Virus record (IMG/VR): IMGVR_UViG_2531839482_000006
DNA: 13,817 bases
Reading direction: 5' to 3' (one strand)
Source: a virus
Taxonomy: Duplodnaviria > Heunggongvirae > Uroviricota > Caudoviricetes
Below, in pieces: positions 6,885-10,601 of this stretch. Each line of letters begins with the position of its first letter. The stretch's first letter is position 1. Made by a program: the position numbers and the translations under genes. Below the pieces are notes generated by a model. That model saw nothing but the letters and a program-made list of their open reading frames with translations. It ran no database searches and was not told where the DNA came from.

Positions 6885-7017
6885 TTTTTGGGACTCCTGG
6901 CTGATTAAGTATGTCGATAAGGCGTTTCCATCCGTCACGTAATTTACGGGTGATTCGTTCAAGTAAAGATTCGGAAGGGCAGCCAGCAACAGGCCACCCT
7001 GCAATGGCATATTGCAT
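6853..7017 (-). CDS. cIII: Lambda CIII (inhibitor of FtsH-mediated CII degradation), 54 aa
   Basis: Hand translation from the ATG at 7017 gives [54 protein letters not shown] with stop at 6853-6855; below the ORF-track size threshold. Confidence 0.9.
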   Translation of the reverse strand: MQYAIAGWPVAGCPSESLLERITRKLRDGWKRLIDILNQPGVPKNGSNTYGYPD

Positions 7018-7089
7018 GGTGTGCTCCTTATTTATACATAACGAAAAACGCCTCGAGTGAAGCGTTATTGGTATGCGGTAACGCCGCGC

Positions 7090-7458
7090 TCAGGCGGCTT
7101 TGATAGTCATATCATCTGAATCAAATATTCCTGATGTATCGATATCGGTAATTCTTATTCCTTCGCTACCATCCATTGGAGGCCATCCTTCCTGACCATT
7201 TCCATCATTCCAGTCGAACTCACACACAACACCATATGCATTTAAGTCGCTTGAAATTGCTATAAGCAGAGCATGTTGCGCCAGCATGATTAATACAGCA
7301 TTTAATACAGAGCCGTGTTTATTGAGTCGGTATTCAGAGTCTGACCAGAAATTATTAATCTGGTGAAGTTTTTCCTCTGTCATTAAGTCATGGTCGATTT
7401 CAATTTCTATTGATGCTTTCCAGTCGTAATCAATGATGTATTTTTTGATGTTTGACAT
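7090..7458 (-). CDS. ea10: Lambda Ea10 (early-left protein, reported ssDNA-binding)
   Basis: 122-aa ORF MSNIKKYIIDYDWKASIEIEIDHDLMTEEKLHQINNFWSDSEYRLNKHGS... recognised as lambda ea10. Confidence 0.85.
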   Translation of the reverse strand: MSNIKKYIIDYDWKASIEIEIDHDLMTEEKLHQINNFWSDSEYRLNKHGSVLNAVLIMLAQHALLIAISSDLNAYGVVCEFDWNDGNGQEGWPPMDGSEGIRITDIDTSGIFDSDDMTIKAA

Positions 7459-7621
7459 CTATTCATATCCTCATAGATAAAAAATCGCCTTCACACTGGA
7501 GGGCAAAGAAGATTTCCAATAATCAGAACAAGTCGGCTCCTGTTTAGTTACGAGCGACATTGCTCCGTGTATTCACTCGTTGGAATGAATACACAGTGCA
7601 GTGTTTATTCTGTTGTTTATG

Positions 7622-7649
7622 CCAAAAATAAAGGCCGACTATGCGGCCT
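7622..7649 (-). terminator. Intrinsic terminator for the inserted membrane-protein gene
   Basis: Minus-strand aggccg-catagt-cggcct (6-bp GC-rich stem) followed directly by uuauuuuugg; lies 5 nt downstream of the CDS stop. Confidence 0.65.
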
Positions 7650-7653
7650 GAAA

Positions 7654-8103
7654 TTACTTAACCAATGATGCTGCATATTCGATAAGGTGAAGCTTTGGGG
7701 CCAGCCAAATTTTTAACCAAGTCATATTGGTTACTACACCAATAATAAAAATCCCCCACAGAGTCAAAACTCCAACCAATGGCATGATAAGAAGATTAAT
7801 ATCACCTTTGCTATCCCAAACCATTGTCGGCCTGTATTTGGGATTTCCTTTCTCCCATGAATATCCTTCATCACCGATTTTACCTGTCTCAACTCTTTGG
7901 CACTGCTTCTTCATAAACCAGAAAACCAGTGGGATTGTTAGAATGGCCATTAATGTTTTAATCAGACTGTCAACCATATTCCATAGCAGCAACTGATGAA
8001 CAACATCAGGAATCTGTGCCTGGCTAAATGAAACAGCCGCGTCTATTCCATTACTGGCTTTTTGCAGTAGTTCTACGAGAATCTTGTTTGCTTGTTCTTC
8101 CAT
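7654..8103 (-). CDS. Hypothetical two-helix membrane protein (149 aa) in an inserted cassette; candidate superinfection-exclusion or abortive-infection effector
   Basis: Complete ORF with a strong RBS (AAGGTGA before the ATG at 8103); soluble N-terminal ~45 aa then two hydrophobic helices (LIKTLMAILTIPLVFWFM, INLLIMPLVGVLTLWGIFIIGVV); own terminator; flanked by a 14-bp direct repeat; no lambda gene corresponds. Confidence 0.7.
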   Translation of the reverse strand: MEEQANKILVELLQKASNGIDAAVSFSQAQIPDVVHQLLLWNMVDSLIKTLMAILTIPLVFWFMKKQCQRVETGKIGDEGYSWEKGNPKYRPTMVWDSKGDINLLIMPLVGVLTLWGIFIIGVVTNMTWLKIWLAPKLHLIEYAASLVK

Positions 8104-8161
8104 ATATCACCTTGATTGTAATAAGCATGAAATTATTTACGGACAAAAATAAAGGCCACCA

Positions 8162-8259
8162 TCAGGCAGCCTTGTAGTTCTGTTTACCAAGTTCTCTGGC
8201 AATCATTGTCGTCGTTCGTATTGTCTACACCATTGATTCTTATCAATAGTCGTAGTCAT
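8162..8259 (-). pseudogene. ral: ral (restriction alleviation) remnant with an internal out-of-frame deletion
   Basis: From the ATG at 8259 the frame reads MTTTIDKNQWC (lambda Ral N-terminus) then RQYERRQ-stop; a second frame reads RTTTMIARELGKQNYKAA-stop (lambda Ral C-terminus); the middle ~37 codons are missing. Confidence 0.7.
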
Positions 8260-8329
8260 ACGGATAGTCCTGGTATTGTTCCATCACATCCTGAGGATGA
8301 TCTTCGAACTCTTCAAATTCTTCTTCCAT
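8243..8329 (-). CDS. Lambda orf28-like acidic peptide (28 aa)
   Basis: Hand translation MEEEFEEFEDHPQDVMEQYQDYPYDYDY with GAGGTGA RBS; overlaps the ral start as in lambda. Confidence 0.55.
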   Translation of the reverse strand: MEEEFEEFEDHPQDVMEQYQDYPYDYDY

Positions 8330-8387
8330 ATCTCACCTCAAATAAGTGGTTTGCTGCCTAATTTCATTTTCTGGCGACCAACACAAG

Positions 8388-8660
8388 TCATCTTGCTGTC
8401 AGTTGTTTGGATTTCCGGTAGCCTGCCGCGTAAAGAGCTACGTTTGGAAGACAAGTTGAGCCTTCATATTTTCTGGTCAGCGTTGTCAGTGTTATTACTT
8501 CTGCTCTCATTGCTGGTTTGCGCTTGCATTGCAAGACCACTCGTGAAGGGGTTGGCCTGTGTAGCTTGTCGGAGCTGATCGCCTTCTGACTTTGCAGATT
8601 TGCGCGACGAGCTCTACGGCGAGAAGCTGCGGTGCCTTTAAATTCTGTTTTTCTGGACAT
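8388..8660 (-). CDS. N: N-type transcription antiterminator, not lambda N; 933W/P22 gp24-like C-terminus
   Basis: 90-aa protein from the Met at 8660 (GGGAGG RBS 6 nt upstream); arginine-rich motif GTAASRRRARRANLQSQK near the N-terminus; C-terminus ...CLPNVALYAAGYRKSKQLTAR resembles the Stx-phage/P22 antiterminator ends as I remember them; cognate nutL upstream. Confidence 0.75.
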   Translation of the reverse strand: MSRKTEFKGTAASRRRARRANLQSQKAISSDKLHRPTPSRVVLQCKRKPAMRAEVITLTTLTRKYEGSTCLPNVALYAAGYRKSKQLTAR

Positions 8661-8758
8661 AGATTCCTCCCGAATAAACTTTGGCGATGCAATCTCGAAG
8701 CTCCTCCTGAGACGGTTGCTTCGGCATTGCATCCCACAGCTCATGTGGTTGGGTGATC

Positions 8759-9092: not shown

Positions 9093-9377
9093 TTAGCTAA
9101 TGATTTGGAATCCTATATCCTCAAGCGTTGCGTCACCTCTGCATAACGCATGAAAGTGACGAGCTTTCAGTCCAGCTTGCTTAGCCATGGATTTTATTAA
9201 ATCTCTGGAGAATGGGGCGTGATGCTTATCAACTGTAACCACCCATTTTCCTTTACTGTTCTTGAGAACCCACTGTTCGTGAGAGGTTCCTGTTTTAGGT
9301 TTCATTTCAAACCCCATTTTCTTAAGTCCCCTGATTACCTCGTCGTATTTCAAAGGAGTAAGCTTTTTCAAGAACAT
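9093..9377 (-). CDS. HicA-family (YcfA-like) putative mRNA-interferase toxin with a ~30-aa C-terminal extension
   Basis: 94-aa ORF; HicA-like motifs read by eye: GF...TGTSHEQW...KWVVTVDKHH...LIKSMAKQAGL; start 11 nt after the stop of the upstream partner gene; followed directly by the terminator. Confidence 0.6.
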   Translation of the reverse strand: MFLKKLTPLKYDEVIRGLKKMGFEMKPKTGTSHEQWVLKNSKGKWVVTVDKHHAPFSRDLIKSMAKQAGLKARHFHALCRGDATLEDIGFQIIS

Positions 9378-9388
9378 GTAATGTAACC

Positions 9389-9685
9389 CTAAGCATGAGC
9401 ATCACAAGGCTCAGCAAAGAGTTTTGCTTCACCTCGTTTTCTGACAAAAACCTGAAATGCAATTACCCAATACTTAAGCCACATAGATAAAGGTGCTTTC
9501 CGACTTAGTAGTTGTTTTGCATATTCCGGCTCTGATAGCGCTTCAGTGAAAAAATCTTTAATCTGCTCATCCAGTTTGTTTACAGCTTCTTTCATAGTAT
9601 CTGCTTGCGCTGCCAATGACAGGTCTAAACATGCAGCTACGTAAACGCCGTTCTGCTGGTAGGCCATGCAACGTAAGGTTTTCAT
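9389..9685 (-). CDS. HicB-like (UPF0150-fold) putative antitoxin, no recognisable C-terminal DNA-binding domain
   Basis: 98-aa ORF with GAGGAG RBS 7 nt upstream; N-terminal region GVYVAACLDLSLAAQADTMKEAVNKLDEQIKDF resembles the HicB N-domain pattern; tightly coupled to the HicA-like gene. Confidence 0.5.
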   Translation of the reverse strand: MKTLRCMAYQQNGVYVAACLDLSLAAQADTMKEAVNKLDEQIKDFFTEALSEPEYAKQLLSRKAPLSMWLKYWVIAFQVFVRKRGEAKLFAEPCDAHA

Positions 9686-9857: not shown

Positions 9858-10511
9858 TTACCCAAACGTCTCTTCTGGCCACTGGCTGGCGATAACTTTC
9901 CCCACAACGGAACAACTCTCATTGCATGGGATCATTGGATATTGCGGGTTTAGTGGCTGTAGAAACACCTGACCGCTATCCCTGATCAGTTTCTTGAAGG
10001 TAAACTCATCACCACCAAGTCTGGCTATGCAGAAATCACCTGGCTCAACAGCCTGCTCAGGGTCAACCAGAATTAACATCCCGTCAGGAAAACTAGGTTT
10101 GGAACCTGTTGGGGCGGTCATCGAGTTACCTTCAACCTCAAGCCAGAATGCAGAGTCACTGGCTTTTTTGGTTGTGCTTACCAATCTCTCCGCATCGCCT
10201 TTGGTAAAGGTTCTGAGTTCTGGAGAGAACATCCCAGCCTGAACATGAGAAAAAACAGGGTACTCATATTGTTTTTTAACTGGGGCCGATGAGTATTCGC
10301 CAACAGGTGAAAATGTCCCGTCGTGGTTGAATGATATGTTATCAATACCAAGGTATTTAAACACCACACCAATATCACTAAGAGATGGATGACGAGATCC
10401 GCGCAACCAGTGTCCAATTCCACCCTGCGTCATACCTAGCTCTTCGGCTAACTTCTCTTGAGTTATGCCGAGCTCTTTCATTCTGGATCTAGCCAGTTCA
10501 TACCATTTCAT
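9858..10511 (-). CDS. cI: CI-type repressor: non-lambda N-terminal HTH domain fused to a lambda-like C-terminal LexA/S24 autocleavage domain
   Basis: C-terminal ~135 aa match lambda CI ([28 protein letters not shown]...GNSMTAPTG...[46 protein letters not shown]) including the Ala-Gly cleavage site; N-terminal ~80 aa ([38 protein letters not shown]...) is unrelated. Start chosen at the Met at 10511 (AAGGA 7 nt upstream); the maximal ORF extends to 10559. Confidence 0.85.
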
Positions 10512-10551
10512 TTTCATGTCCTTATTATTACGCTCTGTATTGCAACCATCC

Positions 10552-10601
10552 ATGCACAATGTGTATTTTTGCTTGCACTAAAAAAGTACATATTGTATTT
10601 T
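10552..10601. promoter_or_regulatory. oR / pR / pRM region: operator-like dyads and a plausible pR
   Basis: Near-palindromes ATGCACAATGTGTAT (10552-10566) and GTACATATTGTA (10586-10597), resembling the oL dyad; pR candidate TTGCAC (10573-10578), 17 nt, TATTTT (10596-10601) upstream of cro. Confidence 0.45.

What the first reader, a model, noticed from the sequence alone, without database searches (positions are those of the whole stretch)
7623..8157. Precisely bounded cargo cassette with a two-helix membrane protein inserted between ea10 and ral
A 521-bp segment carries one gene with its own strong RBS and terminator, flanked by an exact 14-bp direct repeat (caaaaataaaggcc at 7623-7636 and 8144-8157). 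Deleting the segment and one repeat copy restores a lambda-like ea10-ral junction as I remember it. The protein (149 aa, soluble N-terminus then two transmembrane helices) resembles no lambda protein, including SieB. Small membrane proteins at this early-left position are typical of superinfection-exclusion or abortive-infection effectors, so this is a candidate single-gene defence or host-modulating gene of unknown family.
Basis: partly seen in the sequence, partly recalled or inferred. Interest (0 to 1): 0.75.

Follow-up and report, generated by a model that had tools for sequence, protein, structure and literature searches.

The report
Shuffled early phage membrane-protein gene module
The segment is a real extra gene module in a lambda-like prophage, encoding a small two-helix membrane protein from a very large, uncharacterised phage family (Sf6 gene 34 type) that sits in the lytic early-left operon, so it looks like a lytic-cycle accessory function rather than a defence gene expressed by the resting prophage.

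Summary
An exact 14-bp direct repeat (7623-7636, 8144-8157) brackets a 149-aa ORF (7654-8103, minus strand), and removing 521 bp restores the lambda ea10-ral junction.

The repeat is not an insertion scar. Each copy is the 3' arm plus U-tract of a hairpin, and related phages share this module with joints at several discrete linker sequences. That pattern fits recombination at lambdoid "boundary sequences".

The protein belongs to PHROG 3054 (Sf6 gene 34). The family has about 2,550 clusters at 50% identity. It occurs in lambdoid and P22-like temperate phages and in virulent N4-like and phi92-like phages, always among early genes. The N-terminal ~42 and C-terminal ~20 residues are conserved; the two transmembrane helices and the loop are hypervariable.

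No sigma-70-type promoter-like site precedes the gene. It lies in the pL operon behind N and a strong hairpin, next to the lytic-only sRNA PreS. No defence, Imm, SieB or holin family matches. A family member (orf47) gave no reported phenotype in a 200-gene accessory-gene screen.

Best reading: a delayed-early inner-membrane accessory protein. Its exact role is unknown; my guess is envelope-level exclusion or protection. It is a new member of a known but uncharacterised kind, of moderate interest.

The parts
7654..8103 (-). CDS, 149 aa, Sf6 gene-34 / PHROG 3054 family. Acidic N-terminal segment, TM1 about 44-64, loop 65-102, TM2 about 103-126, conserved C-terminal helix 128-148.
   Evidence: ORF; phrog_3054 E 5.3e-63 over the full length; hydropathy; conservation profile; AF2 helices.
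8106..8113 (-). Shine-Dalgarno AAGGTGAT, 4 nt before the ATG. The RBS plus first codons (8092-8112) are 90% identical to the orf28 start (8318-8338). This is the commonest upstream recombination joint.
   Evidence: Sequence; repeat family D2; 40 of 80 loci break at 8112/3.
7622..7649 (-). Intrinsic-terminator-like hairpin AGGCCGCATAGTCGGCCT plus U-tract, just after the stop codon. It contains repeat copy 1 (7623-7636).
   Evidence: fold -12.3 kcal/mol, z -2.0; shared by Gally, HF4s, Stx2_EH2086, Sf6 and SPN9CC.
8142..8173 (-). Terminator-like hairpin AAGGCTGCCTGATGGTGGCCTT plus U-tract, overlapping the old ral stop codon. It contains repeat copy 2 (8144-8157). It is strong here and degenerate in lambda.
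   Evidence: fold -17.6 kcal/mol, z -3.6 against lambda -4.7, z +1.1.
8162..8259 (-). ral remnant: 103-bp internal deletion relative to lambda (joint near 8219/8220), frameshifted.
   Evidence: Pairwise alignment to lambda; RefSeq 'antirestriction Ral family protein, frameshifted' in strain RM8082.
8243..8329 (-). orf28 homologue, intact (MEEEFEEF...).
   Evidence: Alignment to lambda; lambda annotation.
7479..7566 (-). Approximate homologue of the lambda sRNA LPR1/PreS, ending at tL2a (hairpin about 7486-7505). This equals the Sf6 'bsq4' boundary sequence plus tL2A and is the conserved downstream linker of the module. Coordinates are inferred from the 88-nt size and the tL2a 3' end.
   Evidence: Lambda identity; Sf6 annotation; PreS location and lytic-only expression; 23 of 80 loci break at 7477/9.
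7090..7458 (-). ea10 (DUF2528), the downstream neighbour.
8388..8744 (-). N-type antiterminator gene (longest ORF; RefSeq calls the stretch equivalent to 8388-8660), upstream in the same leftward operon. A pL-like promoter lies at 8879-8851.

Best explanation
Shown: the segment is a mosaic gene module of the lambdoid early-left (pL) operon, made of an RBS, a 450-bp ORF and a hairpin terminator. It is not a transposed element. It sits immediately after the ral stop codon and before the PreS/tL2a linker, the same slot as gene 34 of Sf6. Related phages share the module with homology breaks at a few discrete conserved linkers. These are the orf28-like RBS and start, the '...KAA-stop plus hairpin' end of the upstream gene, the gene's own hairpin, and the PreS/bsq4/tL2a sequence.

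Inferred: the module is therefore gained, lost and re-assorted by homologous or short-homology recombination. The 14-bp repeat is simply the duplicated 3' half of two related hairpins. Recombination between the copies would regenerate a lambda-type junction.

Shown: the product is a two-TM membrane protein of a very large phage family. The family conserves about 42 N-terminal and about 20 C-terminal juxtamembrane residues (F26, P32, V34, Q37-L38-L39, W41; I132, A135-P136-K137, L140, E142-Y143). The TM hairpin and loop vary freely. At the DNA level the centre is swapped between near-identical gene ends.

Inferred: both conserved segments lie on the same membrane face. Charge statistics favour the periplasmic face (loop inside), at roughly 65:35. 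Together they form the working part, and the hairpin is an anchor or specificity element. With no sigma-70-type promoter-like site of its own and a strong hairpin in front, the gene should be transcribed only from pL by N-modified polymerase. That makes it a delayed-early lytic gene that is silent in the lysogen.

Most likely role, a low-confidence inference at about 0.3: the protein acts at the inner membrane of the infected cell to protect the infection, in the manner of T4 Imm. This could be exclusion of superinfecting DNA or stabilisation of the envelope against premature permeabilisation. It is not immunity conferred on the lysogen.
For: Module and junctions: clean 521-bp difference from lambda; both repeat copies lie in hairpins; Sf6 order ral, gene 34, bsq4/tL2A; shared linkers; SPN9CC is 99% identical over codons 1-34 and from about codon 131 onward, and unalignable between; break classes in 80 loci; RBS homology to orf28; unrelated genes ending in KAA-stop.

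Family: 181 phage records, including Schitoviridae, Justusliebigvirus, Vibrio and Pseudomonas phages; 2,554 clusters at 50% identity with E<=1e-3, all 70-185 aa; entropy 0.8-1.0 bit at positions 31-40 and 131-149, against about 3 bits or more at 51-120.

Topology: (K/R within 12 residues: 0.53 before TM1, 2.48 after TM1, 1.06 before TM2, 0.73 after TM2; the N-tail has 6.0 D/E against 2.3 K/R).

Timing: no promoter-like site between 8104 and 8260 on the minus strand; pL-like site at 8879-8851; early or DNA-metabolism neighbourhoods in virulent phages; the adjacent lambda sRNA is seen only in the lytic cycle. In this prophage the lysogen-expressed rexAB slot is occupied by HicAB instead.
Against: No experiment addresses this protein. 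The AF2 models are low-confidence (pLDDT 64.5), and fold searches found nothing. The specific role is therefore an analogy and has not been tested.

The 121-aa family member orf47 is not among the superinfection-exclusion, counter-defence or cell-death hits reported, or named in the run notes I read, when expressed alone against lambda, T2-T7 and P1 in ECOR strains.

The same 149-aa allele occurs in phages with different tail and entry types. This argues against an exclusion specificity matched to the phage's own entry route.

Whole-loop K/R totals are nearly balanced (5.0 outside against 5.6 inside), so the topology is uncertain.

The promoter scan is a consensus scan only. A weak TACAAT -10-like element precedes the RBS (my reading), and the gene is intact in a prophage whose ral is decayed (exo is also frameshifted in the near-identical RM8082 copy). 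Some expression or benefit in the lysogen is not excluded.
Confidence: 0.55

Rival explanations
1. The gene is a prophage-expressed single-gene defence: a superinfection-exclusion or abortive-infection membrane effector that protects the lysogen.
For: It is a small membrane protein with presence/absence polymorphism among close relatives. The gene is intact although ral is decayed (and exo too in the near-identical RM8082 prophage). It has its own RBS and terminator. Morons and Sie genes are often membrane proteins (established knowledge; PMC3594210 was listed but not read).
Against: No promoter-like site was found. The gene sits in the repressed pL operon behind N and a -17.6 kcal/mol hairpin. 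The adjacent PreS is lytic-only in lambda. The family is common in obligately virulent phages. There is no PADLOC hit. orf47 is not among the protective hits reported or named in the run notes I read. It co-occurs with sieB in SPN9CC, so it is not a SieB substitute.
Confidence: 0.1
2. The gene is a counter-defence (anti-immunity) factor. The membrane-tethered protein would neutralise a membrane-associated host defence effector or sensor during early infection.
For: It lies in the accessory region that carries ral. In P22-like relatives it lies in the same early-left operon as abc1/abc2. Silas et al. selected it as an accessory gene on this basis. It has early timing, a hypervariable centre and conserved ends, and it occurs in virulent phages.
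Against: orf47 is not among the counter-defence hits reported, or named in the run notes I read, in the ECOR host panel with 8 phages. No similarity to any known anti-defence protein was found. The conserved part is conserved from Vibrio and Pseudomonas phages to coliphages, which suits a conserved target better than a strain-variable defence system.
Confidence: 0.2
3. The gene is a lysis-timing or pore-forming protein (holin, antiholin or viroporin-like).
For: It has the size and two-TM architecture of class II holins. The low-confidence monomer model is compatible with an oligomer.
Against: It is an early-operon gene far from the lysis cassette. No holin family matched any of 15 members at E<=10. 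It has no charged C-terminal tail, and its transmembrane helices are the least conserved part.
Confidence: 0.05
4. The cassette is a mobile-element insertion, with the 14-bp repeat as a target-site duplication.
For: An exact 14-bp direct repeat flanks a single gene, and lambda shows the empty site.
Against: There is no transposase, integrase or terminal inverted repeat. The repeat is half of two hairpins whose similarity extends imperfectly beyond 14 bp. In 80 loci the module's joints fall at several other linkers, and 40 lack the upstream copy altogether. The gene centre itself is exchanged between conserved ends.
Confidence: 0.03

Closest known systems
Shigella phage Sf6 gene 34 protein (NP_958210) / PHROG 3054 / POG-VOG0622 family
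   Same: Full-length homologue, about 50% identity overall and near-identical at the N- and C-terminal ends. It has the same two-TM layout and the same genomic slot, directly after ral and before the bsq4 boundary sequence and tL2A.
   Different: The central TM1-loop-TM2 allele differs (149 aa here, 140 aa in Sf6, 121 aa in SPN9CC and HK633). The family has no assigned function, so membership does not explain the mechanism.
Lambdoid 'boundary sequences' (bsq, as annotated in Sf6; concept from the HK620 and Sf6 genome papers, recalled from memory) and the lambda sRNA PreS/LPR1 with tL2a
   Same: The module's downstream linker is the sequence annotated bsq4/tL2A in Sf6 and corresponds to the lambda ral-ea10 intergenic region that encodes PreS. 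Break points cluster at such linkers.
   Different: An RBS/start-codon linker shared with orf28 is used even more often.
Morons (extra genes between genes that are adjacent in related phages)
   Same: An extra gene lies between two genes that are adjacent in lambda, and it has its own terminator.
   Different: No promoter of its own was found. It is embedded co-directionally in the repressed pL operon, and its composition is like its neighbours. It therefore lacks the autonomous, lysogen-expressed character of a classical moron.
T4 Imm (Pfam PF14373), an early two-TM superinfection-immunity protein of a virulent phage
   Same: Both are small two-TM inner-membrane proteins made early in lytic infection. 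This is the working analogy for function.
   Different: No sequence or profile similarity (hhalign probability 0.2). Imm scored as an exclusion hit in the screen, whereas orf47 is not named as a hit in the run notes I read.
Lambda SieB and P22 SieA exclusion proteins
   Same: They are membrane-associated proteins encoded near N and ral in lambdoid phages.
   Different: No similarity to SieB. SieB is on the opposite strand and is expressed in lysogens. The family co-occurs with sieB in SPN9CC.

Membership tests
Sf6 gene 34 / PHROG 3054 family | Significant full-length match to the family profile | tested here: met
   phrog_3054 E 5.3e-63, residues 1-149 against profile positions 1-137 of 137; tblastn to Sf6 gene 34 at 100% coverage, E 2e-27.
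Sf6 gene 34 / PHROG 3054 family | Conserved N-terminal motif (F..P.V..QLL.W) and C-terminal motif (I..APK..L.EYA..L) flanking two hydrophobic helices | tested here: met
   All of these positions are present in the window protein. They are >=83% conserved in 143 representatives and invariant in alignments A2 and A5. 125 of 142 representatives show two TM segments.
Sf6 gene 34 / PHROG 3054 family | Location among early genes (in lambdoids: the pL operon just downstream of N or ral) | tested here: met
   virulent phages.
Moron | Extra gene between genes that are adjacent in a related phage | tested here: met
   Lambda has ea10 and ral adjacent; the window has 521 extra bp.
Moron | Own promoter allowing expression from the repressed prophage | tested here: not met
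   No sigma-70-like site on the minus strand between 8104 and 8260 at the scan's threshold. This is a consensus scan only, so weak or non-sigma-70 promoters are not excluded.
Moron | Own terminator | tested here: met
   Hairpin 7649-7632 plus U-tract.
Moron | Nucleotide composition distinct from flanking genes | tested here: not met
   Cassette GC 0.39, against ea10 0.38 and the intergenic region 0.40 (window average 0.46).
Known anti-phage defence proteins (PADLOC-DB) | Match to any defence-system profile | tested here: not met
   0 families at E<=1.
T4 Imm (PF14373) | Profile similarity to the Imm family | tested here: not met
   No Pfam hit; hhalign probability 0.2.
T4 Imm (PF14373) | Blocks DNA entry of superinfecting phage | not testable with these tools
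   The only indirect data are the run notes of the Silas et al. screen that I read, which name no hit for orf47.
Lambda SieB | Sequence similarity to SieB | tested here: not met
   Best BLASTP segment is 19 residues, E 0.23.
Holins | Match to a holin family, and location in the lysis cassette | tested here: not met
   No holin family among hits at E<=10 for 15 members. The gene is in the early-left operon.
Transposable or insertion element | Transposase or integrase, terminal inverted repeats, and the repeat as a target-site duplication | tested here: not met
   Single ORF with no enzyme domain. No terminal inverted repeats. Joints vary among loci.

The most novel reading that the evidence does not exclude
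The Sf6 gp34 family may be a previously unrecognised, near-universal class of early phage membrane effector in Gammaproteobacteria. A generic, freely exchangeable TM hairpin would display two short conserved juxtamembrane helices, probably on the periplasmic face. These would act on a conserved envelope component to seal or re-programme the infected cell's inner membrane, as lytic-cycle superinfection immunity or protection against membrane-permeabilising suicide effectors. A more speculative variant applies if the termini are cytoplasmic: the invariant Q-L-L-x-W resembles a beta-clamp-binding motif, and the gene sits next to PreS, which up-regulates dnaN. I put this variant at about 0.03.
Probability: 0.25. 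Interest if true: 0.6.

Novelty: new member of a known kind. Interest (0 to 1): 0.4.

Why it matters
The gene itself is not a discovery. It was annotated in Sf6, it is catalogued as a PHROG, and one member has already been screened. The checks do sharpen the picture in three useful ways.

First, they show how a lambdoid early-left accessory gene is packaged for exchange. Several short linkers serve as alternative recombination joints: an RBS and start shared with orf28, a 'KAA-stop plus hairpin' gene end, and the PreS/tL2a sRNA sequence. The gene's own conserved ends allow its centre to be swapped.

Second, they move the gene from 'prophage defence candidate' to 'lytic-cycle membrane function'. 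This changes which experiments are sensible.

Third, they flag a family of about 2,550 clusters at 50% identity, shared by lambdoid, P22-like, N4-like and phi92-like phages, with a sharply defined conserved core of about 60 residues and no known function. That is a tractable open question. Single-gene deletions are easy in lambda-like, Sf6 and BASEL phages.

Tried and rejected
- Pfam, NCBIfam and PADLOC scans of the protein gave no hits. Pfam scans of 15 diverse members gave only scattered single-member noise, such as Claudin_2.
- A profile search of PDB sequences found nothing at E<=10.
- Two AF2 runs, with 52-sequence and 90-sequence alignments, both gave pLDDT 64.5. Foldseek against BFVD and PDB found nothing below E 0.6. 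The afdb50 library was unavailable.
- hhalign against T4 Imm and BLASTP against lambda SieB showed no relation.
- Cluster names across public sources are only 'hypothetical', 'Phage transmembrane protein' or 'Gene 34 protein'.
- Literature: Martinsohn 2008 mentions ea10 and ral only as engineering sites. The Tai paper and the svsR sRNA paper are unrelated to this locus. The epsilon34 genome paper does not discuss the gene. Accession searches found no paper.
- orf184 of Silas et al., which shares the accessory region with ral and triggers gop-beta-cII, is a different, soluble protein.
- The target-site-duplication idea was rejected on the break-point distribution.
- A neighbour-gene search for a conserved partner failed. 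The 80 loci returned were all close lambdoid relatives, and annotated contexts in distant phages share no common neighbour.
- Rfam found only the cIII thermometer in the window.
Full report
**1. What is in the sequence**

The 14-mer CAAAAATAAAGGCC occurs exactly twice in the window, at 7623-7636 and 8144-8157. None of 200 shuffles gave two copies. Between the copies lies one ORF on the minus strand, 7654-8103, of 149 aa. It is preceded by AAGGTGAT four bases from the ATG. It is followed by a GC-rich hairpin and U-tract at 7649-7632 (-12.3 kcal/mol, z -2.0). The protein has an acidic N-terminal segment and two hydrophobic helices at about 44-64 and 103-126. Removing 7637-8157 (521 bp) makes the window collinear with lambda across the ea10-ral junction.

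**2. What the repeat is**

Both repeat copies are the 3' stem arm plus U-tract of minus-strand hairpins. The upstream hairpin (8173-8152) overlaps the old ral stop codon. It is strong here (-17.6 kcal/mol, z -3.6) and degenerate in lambda (-4.7, z +1.1). The two hairpins resemble each other imperfectly beyond the 14 bp. There is no transposase and there are no terminal inverted repeats. The repeat is a duplicated terminator half and does not look like a target-site duplication.

ral itself is a remnant. It has a 103-bp internal deletion relative to lambda and is frameshifted. RefSeq annotates it this way in the near-identical prophage of E. coli RM8082, which is integrated next to the tRNA-Arg gene by fimZ. 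orf28 is intact.

**3. How the module moves**

In Sf6 the homologous gene 34 sits in the same slot. The order is N, gene 36, ral, gene 34, then a feature annotated 'bsq4; boundary sequence' and a terminator annotated as homologous to lambda tL2A.

A six-phage DNA alignment shows that Gally, HF4s, Stx2_EH2086 and Sf6 share the downstream linker. This linker runs from the stop codon through the hairpin and the lambda-type ral-ea10 intergenic sequence. Gally, Stx2_EH2086 and Sf6 also share the upstream hairpin together with the last codons '...KAA-stop' of whatever gene precedes it. HF4s shares only the RBS.

I aligned 80 IMG/VR loci that carry a close relative against the window.
- Upstream, homology ends at the RBS (8112/3) in 40 loci, at 8138 in 4 and at the foot of the hairpin (8178) in 5. 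It ends at the ral deletion joint in 15, meaning those loci have an intact ral. It continues further in 11.
- Downstream, homology ends just after the gene's hairpin (7594-7624) in 19 loci and at the end of bsq4/tL2a (7477/9) in 23. It continues into ea10 in 31.

The RBS and first codons are 90% identical to those of orf28, which explains the RBS joint. Unrelated genes of this region also end in KAA-stop: ral, Gally gp31, and orf184 of Silas et al.. The module is therefore re-assorted by recombination at a handful of conserved linkers. A crossover between the two 14-bp copies would produce the lambda arrangement.

**4. The downstream linker is an sRNA gene**

In lambda, the ral-ea10 intergenic region encodes the Hfq-dependent sRNA LPR1/PreS. 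It is about 88 nt long with its 3' end at tL2a. It is detected only in the lytic cycle and up-regulates dnaN (bioRxiv 10.1101/2024.10.31.621285). The corresponding window sequence is about 7479-7566 (minus strand). This explains why the 'boundary sequence' is conserved. It also shows that this stretch of the operon is silent in a lambda lysogen.

**5. The protein family**

The protein is a full-length member of PHROG 3054 (E 5e-63). It has no Pfam, NCBIfam or PADLOC match.

tblastn finds homologues in 181 of 50,697 phage records. These include:
- lambda-like and P22-like temperate phages (Sf6, CUS-3, HK633, HK639, SPN9CC);
- virulent Schitoviridae of Vibrio, Klebsiella, Salmonella and Shigella;
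- Justusliebigvirus myoviruses of about 148 kb;
- Vibrio, Pseudomonas and Rheinheimera phages.

In annotated examples the gene lies among early or DNA-metabolism genes and has no constant neighbour. An exhaustive profile search found 2,554 clusters at 50% identity with E<=1e-3, and 1,207 with E<=1e-10. All are 70-185 aa and single-domain. Public names are only 'hypothetical', 'Phage transmembrane protein' or 'Gene 34 protein'. About 55 of 5,426 complete E. coli genomes hold the queried stretch 7300-8500, which spans part of ea10, the cassette, the ral remnant and orf28, at 80% coverage or more.

**6. Anatomy of conservation**

Across 143 representatives, column entropy is 0.8-1.0 bit for residues 31-40 and 131-149. 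It is about 3 bits or more for residues 51-120. All 21 positions conserved in at least 80% of sequences lie in residues 1-41 or 130-147.

At the DNA level the window and Salmonella phage SPN9CC are about 99% identical from the RBS through codon 34. They are 96-99% identical again from about codon 131 through the downstream linker, and they are unalignable in between (see also the two-piece hits). The working part is thus the pair of juxtamembrane segments, and the TM hairpin and loop form an exchangeable centre. Within the 149-aa allele group the loop does carry invariant residues (G74, W83, W96), so the centre is not unconstrained.

Charge statistics over 125 two-TM representatives favour a cytoplasmic loop with both termini outside. 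K/R counts within 12 residues are 0.53 before TM1, 2.48 after TM1, 1.06 before TM2 and 0.73 after TM2. The N-tail has 6.0 D/E against 2.3 K/R. Whole-segment K/R totals are nearly balanced, however. I rate N-out/C-out at about 65%.

AF2 gives helices at 3-17, 33-68, 106-125 and 128-148 and a small beta-hairpin in the loop. Confidence is only pLDDT 64.5 in both runs, and fold searches found nothing.

**7. When it is expressed**

This part is inferred. No sigma-70-like site was found upstream of the gene on the minus strand. A pL-like site lies at 8879-8851. The gene follows an N-type antiterminator gene and a strong hairpin. By the established logic of lambdoid pL operons it should be read only by N-modified polymerase after induction or infection.

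In this prophage the slot normally used for lysogen-expressed accessory genes, between cI and pL, carries a HicA/HicB pair instead. Together with the family's presence in obligately virulent phages, this argues for a lytic-cycle role.

**8. Functional evidence from the literature**

Silas et al. (bioRxiv 10.1101/2023.04.06.535777) chose the 121-aa family member of SPN9CC (AEW47744.1, their UDP0047/orf47, TMHMM 2 TM) as one of 200 accessory genes. Genes were expressed singly in ECOR strains, with and without infection by lambda, T2-T7 or P1.

orf47 is not mentioned in the main text, nor in any supplement held as text other than the gene list. It is not named in the first part of the run-notes file, which names Imm, Cor, UDP79 and UDP183 as exclusion hits. 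This lowers, but does not exclude, strong broad exclusion or counter-defence activity. The allele, the hosts and the phage panel were not matched to the family's natural settings.

**9. Verdict**

It is probably wrong on the defence-of-the-lysogen emphasis and on 'unknown family'.

My best-supported statement is as follows. The gene encodes a delayed-early inner-membrane accessory protein of the Sf6 gp34 family. It is carried on a module shuffled by linker recombination, and its function resides in two conserved juxtamembrane segments. My committed but low-confidence guess for the role (about 0.3) is Imm-like protection or sealing of the infected cell's membrane. The rivals are a membrane-tethered counter-defence factor (about 0.2), a lysogen defence (about 0.1), a lysis-timing protein (about 0.05) and a transposon insertion (about 0.03).

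It is a new member of a known but uncharacterised kind. Interest is moderate, because the family is large, sharply defined and experimentally tractable.

Noticed in passing
window ~7479-7566 (-), hairpin ~7486-7505: The conserved linker downstream of the cassette corresponds to the lambda ral-ea10 intergenic region, which encodes the Hfq-dependent, lytic-only sRNA LPR1/PreS ending at tL2a. Sf6 annotates the same sequence as 'bsq4 boundary sequence' plus tL2A. In the window the tL2a stem carries one substitution relative to lambda (GAGGGC to GAAGGC). It folds weakly (-7.2 kcal/mol, z -0.7), so termination or sRNA 3'-end formation may be impaired here.
   Followed up: partly
window 8162-8259 (-): ral is a pseudogene, with a 103-bp internal deletion relative to lambda (34145-34247) and a resulting frameshift. 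11 of 80 related IMG/VR loci appear to share the deletion and 15 have an intact ral upstream of the same cassette.
   Followed up: yes
window 9093-9377 (-) and 9389-9685 (-): A HicA toxin / HicB-like (DUF1902) antitoxin pair sits between cI (9858-10559) and the pL-like promoter (8879-8851). This is the slot lambda uses for rexAB, where genes are co-transcribed with the repressor in lysogens. It is a more plausible lysogen-expressed defence or addiction cargo than the cassette under study.
   Followed up: no
window 8092-8112 vs 8318-8338: The RBS and first codons of the cassette gene (AGGTGATATATGGAAGAACAA) are 90% identical to those of orf28 (AGGTGAGATATGGAAGAAGAA). Half of the related loci have their upstream homology break exactly there, so this short translational-start sequence acts as a recombination linker.
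   Followed up: partly
window 8158-8178; L005 (Gally) ~2940-2990; Silas et al. orf184: Unrelated proteins encoded in this accessory region end with the same residues ...KAA-stop followed by the same hairpin: ral NKAA/YKAA, Gally gp31 YNKAA, orf184 DKAA. The linker therefore reaches into the 3' coding end of whichever gene lies upstream.
   Followed up: partly
window 7557-7604: A 22-nt imperfect inverted repeat (82% complementary, 4-nt loop) lies between the cassette terminator and the inferred PreS 5' end. It is conserved in lambda, Sf6, Gally and HF4s. Its role is unknown; it could be a processing or structure element of the PreS precursor.
   Followed up: no
window 6972-7030 (-): The only Rfam match in the window is the lambda cIII thermoregulator element (88.5 bits), confirming the lambda-type cIII leader.
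   Followed up: yes
residues 37-41 of the 149-aa protein (window ~7981-7995): The near-invariant Q-L-L-x-W just before TM1 resembles the bacterial beta-clamp-binding pentapeptide (QL[SD]LF, recalled from memory), and the gene lies next to PreS, which up-regulates dnaN. This is probably coincidental, because the motif abuts the membrane and the predicted topology places it in the periplasm. It could not be tested here.
   Followed up: no
L007 (Klebsiella phage MY01) 4001-5456: In this N4-like virulent phage the family member is immediately followed by a 61-aa membrane protein and a 286-aa lipoprotein, downstream of the RNAP II genes. This may be a small envelope-directed early gene cluster.
   Followed up: no
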